Below the pieces are notes generated by a model. It was not told where the DNA came from and made no database searches. It saw only the letters and a program-made list of their open reading frames with translations. Below are positions 23,215-29,970 of a stretch of DNA of 64,000 nucleotides, in pieces; the first letter of the stretch is position 1; each line of letters opens with the position of its first letter. The position numbers and the translations under genes are program-made. Origin of the DNA: Escherichia coli (GTDB lineage: Bacteria > Pseudomonadota > Gammaproteobacteria > Enterobacterales > Enterobacteriaceae); NCBI RefSeq assembly GCF_003790525.1, contig NZ_CP033635.1; one strand, given 5' to 3'.

Positions 23215-25185
23215 TCAGAACGTATACGCGATACCTGCCCAGAAATTGCGACCTTCTTCAATAAACCCTTCACTGTAGGCATATTTGGTATCAAACAGGT
23301 TATTGACCGACGCATTGACGCTGAAGCCATGACCTAAGGTGTAATCGGCTCGAATGTGGGTCACCGCAAAACCGGCGGCTTTTTGTGAACCGTCACTGTT
23401 GCTGTAGCTGGAGGAACGCGCCTCTTCCGACAGCGTTACGCTTAACGGCTCCCACGGTTTGAGAGTCATCCATGCGGTCATTGTCTGCGTTGGCAGATCG
23501 GTTATCTTGCCGATGTCTTTGCGTTTGGCGTCAGCGTGGATCAGGGCGTAGCTCAATCCTACATCCAGTATATTGCTGATTTTCCCCTTAATACCGGCAT
23601 CCAGACCGCTGTAATCCACCGTGCCGCTGTTCTGATTTTGAATGGTATCGGCATCGATATTGTGCGAGAGGATGGCATCACTCACCCGGTTATAGTAAAC
23701 GCTGACCTCAAACCCCCAGTCGTGCGTGAAGGCACCATTCCAGGTTAAATCCACCCCGCGCGCGCGTTCCGGTTTGAGCTGCGGGTTAACAATCGCTATC
23801 TGGTTATACGCAGGTTTGGACGTGGTATAGCGTTCTTTCAGCGTCGGAAAGCGTGTGCGGTCATAGTACGAAAGCGCCAGCGTGTCTTCATTGGCAAAGT
23901 GGTATTTCCCCATCACCTGCCAGTTAAAAGCTGACTGATTGTTGTCGTCATAATGGGTGATACTGCCATCTTTCTCATGTTTTTTCGCTTCTACGCTATC
24001 GCGCCAGTCATAGCTGATTCCAGCCACGACATCGACATTATCGGCAGCAGCCCATTGATATTCACTGGCGAGCGACCAGGTACGATCTTCATAGCGATCG
24101 TAAGCGGCGTGTGGCGCACCTTTTTCCCGGTGTACGTCATCTTTCCAGTTAACGGCAAACGACAGCAGATCGTTTTCACGCACATCGGCTGCCAGTTGTA
24201 ACCCGGCACCGTCGCTGTAATCGGAATAATGGCTGTAGCTGCCTTTTTTATTTTTCAAATCAGCCAGCGAGTTGTACATCATTAGCGTATTTTCAAAGGT
24301 GTCGCGATACAGCCGACTTTTCAGGGTAAAACGATCGTTTAGTTGGGTCGTTCCCTGATAATAAAAACTTTCTTTGTCATACTCTGGCCACTGCCAGTAG
24401 CGTGATTTTTGACCACTATTTCCACTGTATGGCGGGTTATCTTTTTCACCATCCTGCTTAATGTAAGTCAATGTGTATTCATCGTTTTCGCGTGGTGTAA
24501 AACCGAGCTTCACAATGCCGCGTTTATCATCAGCCGATGAATTAATCATCTTGCCGTGTTTGCCTGCAATATCATTATTTACACCATGCGGCAGGCCGAG
24601 AAAATCCTGCTTTAGCTGGCTACCGCTGACTTGCAAATACCCCAGATCGCTGCTGGCGGCAAATGAAGCATGCATATCGTAGGCATTGTCCTGGCTACGG
24701 CTCCATCCCTGGCGATATCCCAGATTTGCTTCCAGAGGTTTTGTTGGCTTCTGGGTGGTGATATTAATGGCTCCGCCCATCTGATTAGGCCCCTGAAGCA
24801 GCGACGAATACCCTTTGGAAACTTCAACTGCCCCCAAATTGTTGGTCAGAATCCGCGCCAGATCGAGGTTGCCGTCATAGGGAACATAAATGGGCACACC
24901 GTCGAAATAGACTGGCACCTGACGACTATCAAAGCCGCGAACTTTGACCTGTTCTTCGTTGCGGCTACCTGACTTTTGCAGCACCACGCCGGGGACGACA
25001 CTTAATGCCTGAGCGACATTCTGTTTATCCAGGGCCTTCATGGTGGGTTGATCGAGAACGGTGGTCGTCGTCGATGATACCGGACTGGACCATACGGTCA
25101 GCGTGTCACTCTCCTGAGCCGCTACGGCCTGCTGGGTAAAGGCAAGTGATAATGCTGTGCAGAGATAACGTTTTTTGAGTCTCAT
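23215..25185 (-). CDS. TonB-dependent outer membrane receptor (small, BtuB-sized)
   Basis: Signal peptide, TonB-box-like DTLTVWS, plug domain, C-terminal ...AGIAYTF; last gene of the six-gene operon. Confidence 0.85.
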   Translation of the reverse strand: MRLKKRYLCTALSLAFTQQAVAAQESDTLTVWSSPVSSTTTTVLDQPTMKALDKQNVAQALSVVPGVVLQKSGSRNEEQVKVRGFDSRQVPVYFDGVPIYVPYDGNLDLARILTNNLGAVEVSKGYSSLLQGPNQMGGAINITTQKPTKPLEANLGYRQGWSRSQDNAYDMHASFAASSDLGYLQVSGSQLKQDFLGLPHGVNNDIAGKHGKMINSSADDKRGIVKLGFTPRENDEYTLTYIKQDGEKDNPPYSGNSGQKSRYWQWPEYDKESFYYQGTTQLNDRFTLKSRLYRDTFENTLMMYNSLADLKNKKGSYSHYSDYSDGAGLQLAADVRENDLLSFAVNWKDDVHREKGAPHAAYDRYEDRTWSLASEYQWAAADNVDVVAGISYDWRDSVEAKKHEKDGSITHYDDNNQSAFNWQVMGKYHFANEDTLALSYYDRTRFPTLKERYTTSKPAYNQIAIVNPQLKPERARGVDLTWNGAFTHDWGFEVSVYYNRVSDAILSHNIDADTIQNQNSGTVDYSGLDAGIKGKISNILDVGLSYALIHADAKRKDIGKITDLPTQTMTAWMTLKPWEPLSVTLSEEARSSSYSNSDGSQKAAGFAVTHIRADYTLGHGFSVNASVNNLFDTKYAYSEGFIEEGRNFWAGIAYTF

Positions 25186-25210
25186 AGAATAAATTCCGTT
25201 TAACAAAGAA

Positions 25211-26065
25211 TTAAATAGAGACTGCGGGTTGCAGACTGACTTTAATGTCAGCTGGTGTCGCGTAATAAGGCGCGGAGGTAATAAAAAGGCGAATGCCGCA
25301 GTCGAGGTAATTTTTGAGTGTTGTCAGATTAATTCCGCCGGTCAGAGCCAGCGTGCAGTGAGGAGCCAGCGACGGTGCTATTTGCGCAATTTCAGTTGCC
25401 TGTTGCGGATTAAATTTGTCGAGCTGAAGTACGTCTGGTTGCGCGCGTAACGCGGCGATTGCCTCTTTCGGCGTGTCGGCTTCAACAACTATTTTCTTCT
25501 CGGGTGCGTGGCGACGTAACTGATTGATTGCGCCTGACCAGTCCTGATTGTCATGAAGAAAATGACGGTGGTTGGCAAACAATAATATGGTTTCCGCACA
25601 TCCGGCACGATGAATCAGTCCTCCGGCAGCCAGAATTGCCTGCGAGGCCAGTAAGCGGGTGCCCGGAATTGCTTTTCGGGTGCAGGCGATATTGCCATCA
25701 GGGTAACGTTCACGAAGTAACGCCAGCATTTGAGCGAGATAATCAGAAACACCGCAACTCCACTCCAGCACATTCTGGACTGCCTTCCATCCCTGATGAA
25801 GTGCTGCGGCATTACCTTGCGCACGGATTAGCCGCTGACCCGCGTTCGCTTGTGAACCGTCGCTGACCGCGTTATCAATAGTTAATCCCAGCGTAGTTAA
25901 CATCTTACACGCGACAGAAATTCCGCTGACGCAGCCGCCCTGACGGTGAAAAAACTCTATATAGCCATGCTGGTGTCCAATATTTAATGCTCGCGTGGTC
26001 AGGTCACCGCCCTGGATATCTTCCAGAAGTAACGCATCGATTTGTGCCTGAGAAAGGAAAATCAT
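25211..26065 (-). CDS. ModD-like protein (quinolinate/nicotinate-nucleotide phosphoribosyltransferase family homolog)
   Basis: 284-aa ORF with type II PRTase-like sequence; family assignment from memory of ModD/QPRTase features. Confidence 0.6.
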   Translation of the reverse strand: MIFLSQAQIDALLLEDIQGGDLTTRALNIGHQHGYIEFFHRQGGCVSGISVACKMLTTLGLTIDNAVSDGSQANAGQRLIRAQGNAAALHQGWKAVQNVLEWSCGVSDYLAQMLALLRERYPDGNIACTRKAIPGTRLLASQAILAAGGLIHRAGCAETILLFANHRHFLHDNQDWSGAINQLRRHAPEKKIVVEADTPKEAIAALRAQPDVLQLDKFNPQQATEIAQIAPSLAPHCTLALTGGINLTTLKNYLDCGIRLFITSAPYYATPADIKVSLQPAVSI

Positions 26066-28619: not shown

Positions 28620-29641
28620 TAGCTCGCCACCAATTTTTGATAGTCGGCGTCACTGAGTGAACAATGCCAGAACAGTTGGGCGTAATGCTGCATGTCACTT
28701 TTAAACTGGCGATTGATGGCGGGATCCAGCCAGGCGTGAAGTCTGCGTAATCCCAGAAGACGGTTGATTCCCGGCGGGGCATCCAGCCAGCCAAAGGGCA
28801 GGCCACTTAAAAATAAGATGCGTTGTTCCGCAACCGCTTTCACGCCCTGCCAGAGAGGATCACGACGAATAAAATCTGCAGTAACGGCCTCCTGAACCAG
28901 AATAATATCCGGCTGCCAGCGCAGGAGATTTTCCATGGAAACCTGTGTCAGACCGTGGCGATCGGCTATTTGCGCGACGTTGTGCAAACCTAATAATTCC
29001 GCCGCCTCGGTATGCAACGAACCCTGTAAGCCCGTTTCCAGCCCTCGAGGACCGCGCGCAGCATAAAAGCTGAGGTTAGCGGCGGGTGAGGTGGCGAATG
29101 CCTGAGCTTCACCAACGAAGCGGCTGGCGAGATTGGCTTGTTCTGCGGCGCGGTGCTCTTCGCCTAACGTTTTGCCAAGCGTTGTTAACTGTTCTGCTGA
29201 TTGTTCCAGTTTCCCGTTAAGCAATAACCAGGGTATTTGTGTCTGTTCGCTAACCTGCCGTGCCTGGGAGATCCAGGTTTCATCCGTATTGCCGCAATCA
29301 ACGACCAAATCGGGATGTAACGCCATAAGCCCTTCCAGCGAGAGTGTGCTGGCGCGCCCGGCGAGTCGTCCCAGCCTGGGGAACTGGCGAATGTGCTCTG
29401 GCAATGGAATTAATGCCTGACGGGCAAAATCAAAAGAGGAAAAACCGACCATTTTTTCTGGCGCGACAGCCAGCAATAGTAAATCGGCGGGCGCGCCTGC
29501 GCTGACGATGCGTGTAATGTTTTGGGCTTCGGGAAGCGTCAGTGAGGACCAGAATTTGACTGATTGTGCAAAGGACGGCAGATGATGCAGGAACAATGTC
29601 GACGCAAGAATCTGTGTAAACCTCCGTCTGGTTAGTGACAT
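28619..29641 (-). CDS. Periplasmic substrate-binding protein (TroA/BtuF/FhuD-like) with Tat-like signal peptide
   Basis: Start set at internal ATG with RBS-like cagga; N-terminus MSLTRRRFTQILASTLFLHHLPSFAQ. Confidence 0.7.
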   Translation of the reverse strand: MSLTRRRFTQILASTLFLHHLPSFAQSVKFWSSLTLPEAQNITRIVSAGAPADLLLLAVAPEKMVGFSSFDFARQALIPLPEHIRQFPRLGRLAGRASTLSLEGLMALHPDLVVDCGNTDETWISQARQVSEQTQIPWLLLNGKLEQSAEQLTTLGKTLGEEHRAAEQANLASRFVGEAQAFATSPAANLSFYAARGPRGLETGLQGSLHTEAAELLGLHNVAQIADRHGLTQVSMENLLRWQPDIILVQEAVTADFIRRDPLWQGVKAVAEQRILFLSGLPFGWLDAPPGINRLLGLRRLHAWLDPAINRQFKSDMQHYAQLFWHCSLSDADYQKLVAS

Positions 29642-29970
29642 AAGTAATATCCTGATAATTAAAACCGCTATATACTTACACATATAGCGAAAAAGATCAT
29701 GTTTGATGTCAAAATTTGTCTAAAGAGACAGAATGATTTGCTTGTTTCTTAAATAACACTTTGTTCCACAAGAAAATTGTCAGGGAGAATGGGGAGTGGG
29801 GGAAAATATAAATAGAGGTGTAATGATTAACAAGTTGATAAAATAAAATTAAAATCTTCTCTAATAAAAGAAAATAAAGGCATAGACCGTAGAAAGAGTG
29901 GTATTTCGTGGTGAAGAAAGAGCAATGCCAATTTTATGCATGTAATGGCATTGCTCGATATACAGTAAAG

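What the first reader, a model, noticed from the sequence alone, without database searches (positions are those of the whole stretch)
23215..29683. Six-gene metal-chelate-type uptake operon with embedded methyltransferase and ModD-like genes between ymgE and treA
Where K-12 has the small ycgY gene (from memory), this window has a compact minus-strand operon: periplasmic binding protein, FecCD-type permease, ABC ATPase, class I SAM-dependent methyltransferase, ModD-like phosphoribosyltransferase homolog, TonB-dependent receptor. Stops and starts overlap or nearly abut throughout (TAATG at 28619, GTGA at 27640, ATGA at 26063), indicating translational coupling. A TonB/ABC importer that co-encodes a methyltransferase and a ModD-like enzyme is unusual. 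It suggests the imported substrate (metallophore, corrinoid-like or molybdenum/tungsten-related compound) is modified or processed after uptake, or that the enzymes act on a cargo-releasing step. The receptor is small (about 656 aa), closer to BtuB size than to siderophore receptors. The substrate cannot be deduced from sequence.
Basis: partly seen in the sequence, partly recalled or inferred. Interest (0 to 1): 0.8.

Follow-up and report, generated by a model that had tools for sequence, protein, structure and literature searches.

The report
Molybdenum-regulated TonB/ABC uptake operon
The six-gene operon is real and is a known but uncharacterised E. coli accessory island, labelled "iron uptake" in databases; its conserved ModE (molybdate-sensor) operator and its gene neighbours in other bacteria point to scavenging of molybdenum or tungsten instead.

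Summary
Observation confirmed. Six co-oriented, tightly packed minus-strand genes replace K-12 ycgY between ymgE and treA: binding protein, FecCD permease, ATPase, class I SAM methyltransferase, ModD and a TonB-dependent receptor.

The cluster is not new as an object. It is the "prrA-modD-yc73-fepC" island (O157 OI#55/S-loop#83) and is present in 2139 of 5426 complete E. coli genomes. It has only been guessed to take up iron.

- A perfect palindrome, CGCTATAT-N8-ATATAGCG (29666-29689), lies 24 nt upstream of the real start codon. It matches the E. coli ModE consensus and has the geometry of the K-12 modA operator.
- The box is conserved upstream of orthologous clusters in Enterobacterales, Shewanella and betaproteobacteria: at least 58 of 74 loci, against 6 boxes in 1.04 Mb of flanking DNA.
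- In betaproteobacteria the cluster sits between modABC and modD-modE.
- No Fur box and no riboswitch were found.
- Among solved structures, the permease and ATPase are closest to H. influenzae MolBC, a molybdate/tungstate importer next to modD.

Best reading: a ModE-repressed, TonB-dependent Mo/W acquisition system. The roles of the methyltransferase (fused to the ATPase in one relative) and of ModD remain inferred.

The parts
29666..29689 (-). Predicted ModE operator: CGCTATAT-GTGTAAGT-ATATAGCG, a perfect 8+8 palindrome. With its flanks it reads tTCGCTATATg-N6-TATATAGCGgT.
   Evidence: (sequence); the only match in 64 kb, at 0 mismatches, and the only one even when up to 2 are allowed (0.19 expected at up to 2 mismatches). 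The consensus ATCGNTATATA-N6-TATATANCGAT is quoted in PMC545781. The K-12 modA operator CGTTATATTGTCGCCTACATAACG has the same geometry. The box is conserved in orthologous loci.
29707..29712 (-). TTGACA, a -35-like hexamer 17 nt upstream of the operator. The -10 element would overlap the left half-site of the operator.
   Evidence: sequence. In the alignment of 16 orthologous 5' regions, TTGA(C/T) is the only conserved island besides the ModE box, at a fixed distance from it. The exact -10 element is not resolved.
28619..29641 (-). Periplasmic substrate-binding protein (PF01497 class), 340 aa, with a Tat-like TRRRF signal.
   Evidence: The best solved relative is 4PAG (ligand unknown). MolA (3PSA) is the fifth structural neighbour (TM 0.66, 21% identity).
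27639..28619 (-). FecCD-type (type II) ABC importer permease, 326 aa.
   Evidence: the best solved match is HI1471 (MolB, 2NQ2_A) at E=9.4e-65, ahead of FhuB, HmuU and BtuC.
26884..27642 (-). ABC ATPase, 252 aa. Its GTG start overlaps the permease stop.
   Evidence: the best single-domain solved match is HI1470 (MolC, 2NQ2_C) at E=8.9e-36.
26062..26874 (-). Class I SAM-dependent methyltransferase ('yc73'), 270 aa, of small-molecule type. It is the core partner of the importer across taxa.
   Evidence: Synteny. Family of 304 representatives at E<=1e-30. ATPase-methyltransferase fusion P0349.
25211..26065 (-). ModD, a homologue of quinolinate phosphoribosyltransferase, 284 aa.
   Evidence: TIGR01334 at 500.7 bits; the nadC model scores 136.1, below its cut-off of 198.4. 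R139, K140, H161, R162, E201 and D222 are kept, while R105 is K and K172 is F in all 55 ModD sequences compared.
23215..25185 (-). TonB-dependent outer-membrane receptor ('prrA'), 656 aa, with a signal peptide and a TonB-box-like DTLTVWS.
   Evidence: In Proteus, Morganella, Shewanella and Pectobacterium the receptor gene has its own ModE box.
23178..23207 (-). Hairpin GCGGATAGCG-N10-CGCTATCCGC just after the receptor stop. It is the likely operon terminator, shared with the convergent ymgE.
   Evidence: read from the sequence. The consensus scan did not list it, because it has no strong T run.
23239..29969 (.). Extent of the accessory segment relative to K-12, where 622 bp containing ycgY take its place.
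   Evidence: The left junction lies 24 nt inside the 3' end of the receptor gene.

Best explanation
The operon is a ModE-controlled acquisition system for molybdenum, and probably also tungsten.

1. When cytoplasmic molybdate is sufficient, molybdate-bound ModE sits on the palindrome that overlaps the promoter and blocks transcription, as it does at modABC.
2. Under Mo starvation the six genes are transcribed as one unit.
3. The TonB-dependent receptor actively brings a scarce Mo/W species across the outer membrane.
4. The Tat-exported binding protein hands that species to a MolBC-like type II ABC importer.
5. The co-translated methyltransferase and ModD act in the cytoplasm on the cargo or its carrier.

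Shown from sequence: operon structure, operator identity, conservation of the operator, Mo-gene neighbourhoods and homology to MolBC.

Inferred: repression rather than activation (from operator position), Mo/W as cargo, and cytoplasmic cargo processing. My preferred guess for the processing step is that the methyltransferase alkylates a donor atom of an organic Mo chelate to release Mo(VI), which cannot be released by reduction as iron is. ModD keeps a PRPP-type site but has altered substrate contacts.
For: Operator:
- Perfect palindrome 24 nt upstream of the start codon, matching the published consensus at 19 of 22 specified positions.
- Same spacing to the start codon as the K-12 modA operator.
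- Unique in the 64-kb window.

Phylogenetic footprint:
- At least 58 of 74 evaluable loci have a box with at most 2 mismatches within 350 nt upstream of the first cluster gene. Only 6 boxes occur in 1.04 Mb of flanking DNA.
- Among 80 distinct boxes, positions that were not part of my search pattern reproduce the published consensus.
- Only the box and a -35 hexamer are conserved in the 5' regions.
- A second box lies in front of the receptor gene in Proteus, Morganella, Shewanella and Pectobacterium.

Gene context:
- In Burkholderiales loci the order is modA-modB-modC | box | receptor-DUF2478-SBP-permease-ATPase-MTase-(DUF364)-ModD-ModE.
- L090 has a divergent modE next to receptor-SBP-permease-[ATPase::MTase fusion].

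Protein homology:
- Permease and ATPase are closest to MolB and MolC among solved structures.
- The H. influenzae molABC genes lie next to modD.
- molB is repressed by molybdate (PMC4031551).

Negative controls:
- No Fur box with at most 3 mismatches in the window.
- No riboswitch or Moco motif.
Against: - No experiment on this cluster was found.
- The binding protein is not a close orthologue of MolA (21% identity, fifth structural neighbour). Its nearest solved relative has no known ligand, and other neighbours bind iron chelates or haem.
- MolA itself binds molybdate only weakly (about 100 uM), so even the model system's true cargo is debatable.
- TonB receptors and type II importers usually carry bulky chelates, so free molybdate may not be the cargo.
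- ModE also activates some promoters. Repression is inferred from position only, and the -10 element is not cleanly identifiable.
- The methyltransferase is a pseudogene in the one O157 strain whose annotation I read.
- Some genera keep only MT-ModD or MT-ModD-receptor, so the enzyme roles are unclear.
- The methyltransferase fold search gave only generic small-molecule methyltransferases.
Confidence: 0.7

Rival explanations
1. It is an iron-chelate (siderophore or haem) uptake system, as databases and the E. coli literature label it.
For: RefSeq and other sources name the proteins 'iron ABC transporter substrate-binding protein/permease'. Papers call it 'possibly mediating iron uptake' (PMC12928451; PMC1890555). 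The receptor scores on the TonB-siderophore and TonB-hemin subfamily models, below their cut-offs. Structural neighbours of the binding protein include YiuA, CeuE and haem binders.
Against: There is no Fur box with at most 3 mismatches anywhere in the window. The promoter instead carries a ModE operator that is conserved across orders. Relatives are embedded in modABC/modE loci. No NCBIfam iron-specific model reaches its cut-off.
Confidence: 0.06
2. ModD and the methyltransferase are biosynthetic. They make a small Mo-binding metallophore that is secreted and then recaptured by the receptor and the ABC importer, by analogy with the Zur-controlled opine-metallophore operons.
For: Two small-molecule enzymes are co-regulated with a receptor and importer under a metal sensor. 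ModE boxes precede MT or MT-ModD even where the importer genes are absent. ModD keeps catalytic and PRPP residues but has changed substrate contacts.
Against: No exporter gene is present in the operon. Shewanella and several other clusters lack ModD altogether. The ATPase-methyltransferase fusion argues for action at the importer's cytoplasmic face. The Edwardsiella 'orphans' look like deletion remnants, because P0111 is an ABC fragment fused to the methyltransferase.
Confidence: 0.1
3. It is a corrinoid or other tetrapyrrole salvage importer.
For: The permease's best NCBIfam hit is BtuC (242.7 bits). The ATPase hits haem, corrinoid and F420-0 ATPase models. The methyltransferase weakly hits the corrinoid-protein-associated CpaM and CbiT models. 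The receptor is close to BtuB in size.
Against: All of those scores are far below the family cut-offs. No cobalamin riboswitch is found at E<=1. ModE operator and Mo-gene neighbourhoods apply as above.
Confidence: 0.03
4. The palindrome is an RNA hairpin (leader attenuator or terminator) rather than a protein operator.
For: The consensus scan flags 29690-29665 as terminator-like: 11 pairs followed by TTTTAATTAT.
Against: The stem has only 3 G-C pairs. Across 80 distinct orthologous boxes the arm sequence itself (TATATA, CG) is conserved, while the degenerate third-position pair is non-complementary in 41 of 80. That is the signature of a DNA-binding site, not of RNA pairing. The treA gene has its own hairpin further upstream, read from the sequence.
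Confidence: 0.03

Closest known systems
Haemophilus influenzae MolBC-A (HI1470-HI1472), a type II ABC importer of molybdate/tungstate, in the molABC-modD cluster HI1469-HI1475
   Same: Permease and ATPase are the closest solved homologues. The binding protein belongs to the same structural subgroup. A modD gene is adjacent. Expression is repressed by molybdate in H. influenzae and predicted to be so here through ModE.
   Different: The E. coli operon adds a TonB-dependent receptor and a SAM methyltransferase. It lacks the modA-like gene and the second ABC pair of the Haemophilus cluster. The binding protein is only 21% identical to MolA. MolBC-A is described as a low-affinity system used at high molybdate, whereas a TonB-energised system implies scavenging of a scarce or bulky species.
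E. coli modABC operon and its ModE operator
   Same: Both have a 24-bp palindrome CGnTATAT-N8-A(T/C)ATAnCG about 20-25 nt upstream of the first start codon. Both are predicted to be derepressed on Mo starvation.
   Different: ModABC is a type I importer with a ModA-type binding protein and no outer-membrane component or enzymes. The proteins are unrelated apart from the ATPase fold.
The 'prrA-modD-yc73-fepC' island of uropathogenic E. coli, O157 OI#55/S-loop#83 and BEN2908 GR9 (Guyer, Kao and Mobley 1998; PMC1890555; PMC12928451)
   Same: This is the same locus: between ymgE and treA, with the same genes.
   Different: Those papers treat it as a putative iron-uptake or virulence-associated marker. 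None that I could read mentions ModE, molybdenum regulation, or any functional test.
Metal-sensor-controlled TonB systems for non-iron metals (ZnuD for zinc, OprC/NosA for copper, CntO for pseudopaline, LutH for lanthanides; recalled from general knowledge)
   Same: The logic is the same: a TonB receptor plus inner-membrane importer, switched on by starvation for one specific metal.
   Different: To my knowledge no Mo-specific TonB receptor has been characterised. The accessory enzymes here (ModD, methyltransferase, or DUF2478/DUF364 in other taxa) have no counterpart in those systems.

Membership tests
ModE regulon (E. coli-type) | Operator matching ATCGnTATATA-N6-TATATAnCGAT in the promoter region | tested here: met
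   Window 29666-29689 has 0 mismatches to CGNTATAT-N8-ATATANCG, matches 19 of 22 consensus positions, and is the only hit in 64 kb.
ModE regulon (E. coli-type) | Operator conserved upstream of orthologous operons | tested here: met
   At least 58 of 74 loci carry it, against 6 boxes in 1.04 Mb of flanks. Positions not used in the search reproduce the consensus.
ModE regulon (E. coli-type) | Molybdate-dependent ModE binding and regulation in vivo or in vitro | not testable with these tools
   Requires EMSA or footprinting and reporter assays.
MolBC-A-type type II molybdate/tungstate importer | FecCD-fold permease and NBD homologous to MolB and MolC | tested here: met
   2NQ2_A is the top hit at E=9.4e-65. 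2NQ2_C is the top single-domain hit at E=8.9e-36.
MolBC-A-type type II molybdate/tungstate importer | Binding protein orthologous to MolA | tested here: inconclusive
   Sequence E=1.2e-7 over 74 residues only. Foldseek rank 5, TM 0.66, 21% identity. The closest relative, 4PAG, has no known ligand.
MolBC-A-type type II molybdate/tungstate importer | Binding and transport of molybdate or tungstate | not testable with these tools
   Requires binding and uptake assays.
ModD (TIGR01334) | Score above the curated family cut-off | tested here: met
   500.7 bits against 178.85.
NadC (quinolinate phosphoribosyltransferase) | Equivalog score and full set of quinolinate-binding residues | tested here: not met
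   136.1 bits, below the cut-off of 198.4. R105 is K and K172 is F invariantly in 55 ModDs, while the PRPP and catalytic residues are kept.
Fur-regulated siderophore or haem uptake operon | Fur box at the promoter | tested here: not met
   No match with at most 3 mismatches to GATAATGATAATCATTATC in the whole window.
Fur-regulated siderophore or haem uptake operon | Architecture of receptor, PF01497 binding protein, FecCD permease and ATPase | tested here: met
Btu-type cobalamin uptake | Cobalamin riboswitch and BtuB/BtuC equivalog scores | tested here: not met
   No Rfam hit at E<=1 in 22500-32500. BtuC scores 242.7 against a cut-off of 461, and BtuB 70-79 against 600-836.
TonB-dependent receptors | Plug domain, beta-barrel and N-terminal TonB box | tested here: met
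   TonB-siderophore, hemin and B12 models align from plug to C-terminus. RefSeq names it 'TonB-dependent receptor plug domain-containing protein'. DTLTVWS follows the signal peptide.

The most novel reading that the evidence does not exclude
The operon may be the first TonB-dependent uptake system for an organic molybdenum (or tungsten) complex, a 'molybdophore' or pirated Mo-chelate. In this reading the importer-associated SAM methyltransferase releases the metal by alkylating the ligand, and ModD (or DUF2478/DUF364 in other lineages) completes cargo processing. That would be a metal-release chemistry different from the reductive or hydrolytic release used for iron.
Probability: 0.2. Interest if true: 0.85.

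Novelty: new variant of a known kind. Interest (0 to 1): 0.6.

Why it matters
- Molybdoenzyme-dependent anaerobic respiration drives Enterobacteriaceae blooms in the inflamed gut and supports urinary and systemic infection. Tungstate treatment exploits Mo uptake.
- A second, TonB-energised, ModE-controlled Mo/W route would therefore matter. It is present in about 39% of complete E. coli genomes (including O157 and ExPEC lineages) and in Proteus, Morganella, Citrobacter, Klebsiella/Raoultella and Shewanella.
- It would change how Mo limitation and tungstate sensitivity are interpreted in these organisms.
- It would correct a widespread "iron transporter" annotation.
- It would give the long-orphan ModD family, and a 304-cluster methyltransferase family, a testable physiological context.
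- To my knowledge no Mo-specific TonB receptor has been characterised.

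Tried and rejected
Literature:
No functional study of the cluster was found, and no paper links it to ModE.
- Four key papers are not held: Guyer 1998, Tirado-Lee 2011, and Studholme & Pau 2003, tried both by PMC id and by DOI. 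I therefore cannot exclude that Studholme & Pau already listed this operator.

Regulatory scans:
- Fur box: negative.
- Rfam at E<=1 over the locus and at gathering threshold over the window: no riboswitch.
- The sigma-70 consensus scan did not yield a clean promoter at the operator.

Proteins:
- Methyltransferase: the sequence search against PDB, NCBIfam and Foldseek gave only generic class I small-molecule methyltransferases and no substrate clue.
- Receptor: no specific family and no close solved structure.
- Binding-protein model: the ranking places MolA among the neighbours but does not settle the ligand. I could not inspect the pocket because model coordinates are not exposed.

Genomes:
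- A search for a divergent second copy in E. coli found none.
- Context look-up of a tandem methyltransferase-methyltransferase fusion (P0315) returned nothing.

Full report
**1. The observation**

The window holds six co-oriented minus-strand ORFs between ymgE and treA. NCBIfam assigns them as follows:
- a PF01497-type binding protein;
- a FecCD/BtuC-like permease;
- an ABC ATPase;
- a class I SAM methyltransferase;
- ModD (TIGR01334, 500.7 bits against a cut-off of 178.85);
- a TonB-dependent receptor.

The other two gaps are 9 and 25 nt. A GC-rich hairpin follows the receptor stop, and the scans give no more internal promoter-like or terminator-like matches than shuffled sequence does. One transcription unit is therefore the simplest reading.

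Two gene starts need correction. The binding-protein gene most likely begins at ATG 29641 (the RefSeq start; MSLTRRRF..., with AGGA 8 nt upstream). The ATPase begins at GTG 27642.

K-12 carries ycgY here. Its homology to the window ends at 23238 and resumes at 29970, so 6.7 kb replace 622 bp.

**2. What the locus is called**

The segment is a common E. coli accessory island:
- It is full-length in 2139 of 5426 complete genomes, always single-copy, and includes O157 and ExPEC strains.
- It is 100% identical to E. coli strain 2D over the whole 7.2-kb query, and to SMS-3-5 over the ModD-methyltransferase query.
- In the literature it is the "prrA-modD-yc73-fepC" cluster: GR9 ymgE..treA of APEC BEN2908, "possibly mediating iron uptake" (PMC12928451), and S-loop#83/OI#55 (ECs1693-1699) of O157 Sakai (PMC1890555), tracing back to Guyer, Kao and Mobley 1998.
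- Database names are "iron ABC transporter ..." and "ModD protein".

I found no functional study (ten literature searches).

**3. The regulatory signal**

The 330-nt AT-rich region upstream contains a perfect palindrome, CGCTATAT-GTGTAAGT-ATATAGCG, at 29689-29666.

- With its flanks it matches the E. coli ModE consensus ATCGNTATATA-N6-TATATANCGAT (quoted in PMC545781) at 19 of 22 specified positions.
- The K-12 modA operator, read from MG1655, is CGTTATATTGTCGCCTACATAACG and ends 19 nt before the modA ATG. The box here ends 24 nt before the binding-protein ATG.
- It is the only such site in the 64-kb window.
- The long-ORF ATG at 29683 lies inside the palindrome, which is why that start is unlikely.
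- No Fur box exists in the window, even with 3 mismatches allowed.
- Rfam finds no riboswitch, including cobalamin and Moco motifs, at E<=1.

**4. Comparative genomics**

I scanned one genome per species with a methyltransferase alignment. This returned 80 loci from Enterobacterales, Shewanella, Photobacterium, Neisseriaceae, Burkholderiales, Bordetella, Lysobacteraceae and Pseudomonas.

Gene order:
- SBP-permease-ATPase-MTase-ModD-receptor in 43 loci.
- The same order without ModD in 9 loci (Shewanella and others).
- Receptor-DUF2478-SBP-permease-ATPase-MTase in betaproteobacteria.

The methyltransferase is therefore the constant partner of the importer. ModD alternates with P-loop NTPases (DUF2478, NTPase_1) and, in some loci, a DUF4213/DUF364 "putative heavy-metal chelation" protein.

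ModE boxes:
- A box with at most 2 mismatches lies within 350 nt upstream of the first cluster gene in at least 58 of 74 evaluable loci. Several of the 16 "misses" are artefacts of my gene chaining.
- Only 6 boxes occur in 1.04 Mb of surrounding DNA.
- Twenty-eight perfect boxes occur in 1.56 Mb; my own estimate from the 14 specified bases is about 0.006 by chance.
- Proteus, Morganella, Shewanella and Pectobacterium carry a second box in front of the receptor gene.
- In an alignment of 16 upstream regions, only a TTGA(C/T) hexamer and the box are conserved.
- In the frequency matrix of 80 distinct boxes, positions that I did not search for (T before CG, A after TATAT, T before ATATA, AT after CG) reproduce the published consensus.
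- The degenerate inner pair is non-complementary in 41 of 80 boxes. This argues for a protein site and against an RNA stem.

**5. Gene neighbourhoods**

- In a Burkholderiaceae genome (L077) the cluster lies directly downstream of modA (TIGR01256), modB and modC. It is followed by ModD (208.9 bits, above the cut-off) and a full ModE.
- L078, L079, L081, L082 and L084 show parts of the same arrangement, and Pectobacterium L042 has a modE-like gene upstream.
- In L090 a modE homologue is divergent from receptor-SBP-permease-[ATPase::methyltransferase]. There the ATPase and the methyltransferase are one 527-aa polypeptide, and two degenerate boxes lie in the intergenic region.
- This fusion is the best evidence that the methyltransferase works at the importer.

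**6. The proteins**

- Permease and ATPase: among solved structures the permease is closest to HI1471/MolB (E=9.4e-65) and the ATPase to HI1470/MolC. These are the type II molybdate/tungstate importer of H. influenzae. Its operon adjoins modD (PMC3928620), and its transcription is repressed by molybdate through an "unknown factor" (PMC4031551).
- Binding protein: model pLDDT 87.6. It is nearest to 4PAG (ligand unknown), then TM0189, 4OVK and MolA (TM 0.66), ahead of YiuA, haem and B12 binders. It is in MolA's neighbourhood but is not its orthologue. It carries a mostly conserved twin-arginine motif and invariant Arg, Tyr and Trp residues.
- ModD: it keeps R139, K140, H161, R162, E201 and D222 of M. 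tuberculosis quinolinate phosphoribosyltransferase. It invariantly has K for R105 and F for K172. A PRPP-type site with a changed acceptor site is the natural reading.
- Methyltransferase: model pLDDT 92.8. It resembles small-molecule N/O/C-methyltransferases only generically. Its family has 304 representatives at E<=1e-30.

**7. Mechanism**

Shown:
- one compact operon;
- a consensus ModE operator at its promoter, conserved over large evolutionary distance;
- linkage to modABC and modE elsewhere;
- a MolBC-like inner-membrane engine;
- a TonB receptor that is itself ModE-boxed in several genera.

Inferred:
- Molybdate-ModE represses. The operator sits between the -35 hexamer and the start codon, as at modA.
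- The cargo is a Mo/W species.
- The receptor is needed because that species is scarce or bulky.
- The methyltransferase and ModD act on the cargo after import.

I favour ligand alkylation as a way to free Mo(VI) from a chelate, but this is a hypothesis only.

Loci that keep only MT-ModD (Edwardsiella) or MT-ModD-receptor (Intestinirhabdus, at the same treA/emtA site) retain the box. They may be decay products, because P0111 is an ABC fragment fused to the methyltransferase.

**8. Rivals**

- Iron uptake rests on annotation by family resemblance. It is contradicted by the missing Fur box and by the Mo context.
- Corrinoid uptake lacks a riboswitch, and all its family scores are below the cut-offs.
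- A biosynthetic role for ModD and the methyltransferase (making a molybdophore) is not excluded. However, the operon has no exporter, ModD is dispensable in many clusters, and the ATPase fusion points to the importer.
- The hairpin reading of the palindrome fails on its conservation pattern.

**9. Novelty**

As a locus it is known. As a system it is a variant of ModE-controlled Mo uptake and of the MolBC-A importer, extended by a TonB receptor and a dedicated methyltransferase.

In everything I could read it has been treated as an iron system. I could not read Studholme & Pau 2003 or consult RegPrecise, which may already list the operator.

I score interest at 0.6. The finding is surprising to a degree, widely distributed in pathogens, and directly testable. 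It is an extension of known logic rather than a new category.

Noticed in passing
window 23215-23238, compared with K-12 (L089): The left K-12/window junction lies 24 nt inside the 3' end of the receptor gene. K-12 therefore retains the last 8 or so codons of a gene it lacks, which suggests that the ycgY state is derived (cluster replaced) rather than ancestral.
   Followed up: partly
L001 (E. coli O157 AR-0430), locus 5761-6573, 9676-11359 and 362-2409: In this O157 genome the methyltransferase gene is annotated as a pseudogene (internal stop), treA is frameshifted and ycgR is split by an IS3 element. The ModE box is still perfect (CGATATATATGTAAATATATAGCG).
   Followed up: partly
L023 (Intestinirhabdus alba) 938-8244; L048 and L051 (Edwardsiella): Reduced versions exist. 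In Intestinirhabdus the arrangement is treA | box-MT-ModD-receptor | emtA ldcA, at the same chromosomal site and without the importer genes. In Edwardsiella only box-MT-ModD remains.
   Followed up: partly
L077 10756-11652, 6453-7001 and 5563-6456: Betaproteobacterial clusters carry a DUF4213+DUF364 'putative heavy-metal chelation' protein and a DUF2478 P-loop NTPase. A 297-aa ORF with no family hit lies between the receptor gene and DUF2478.
   Followed up: partly
P0315, P0317, P0396: Tandem methyltransferase-methyltransferase fusion proteins of this family (550-574 aa) occur in lysine-rich proteins, which suggests low-GC organisms. Their genomic context could not be retrieved.
   Followed up: partly
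window 29915-29955 (minus strand): A hairpin GAGCAATGCCA...TGGCATTGCTC followed by TTTCTTC lies just after the treA stop. It is the likely treA terminator and separates treA from the cluster promoter.
   Followed up: no
window 6970-7048, 50283-50348 and 50819-50884: Rfam gathering-level hits elsewhere in the window: C0299 sRNA and two rdlD antitoxin RNAs (ldr/rdl toxin-antitoxin repeats).
   Followed up: no
E. coli genomes collection: A few copies of the cluster (8-12 places) lie on plasmids rather than chromosomes.
   Followed up: no
L002 / L035 (Shewanella mangrovi): An orphan methyltransferase of this family, with no importer, lies two genes from a Nitro_FeMo-Co (PF02579) protein. No ModE box was found there.
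   Followed up: no
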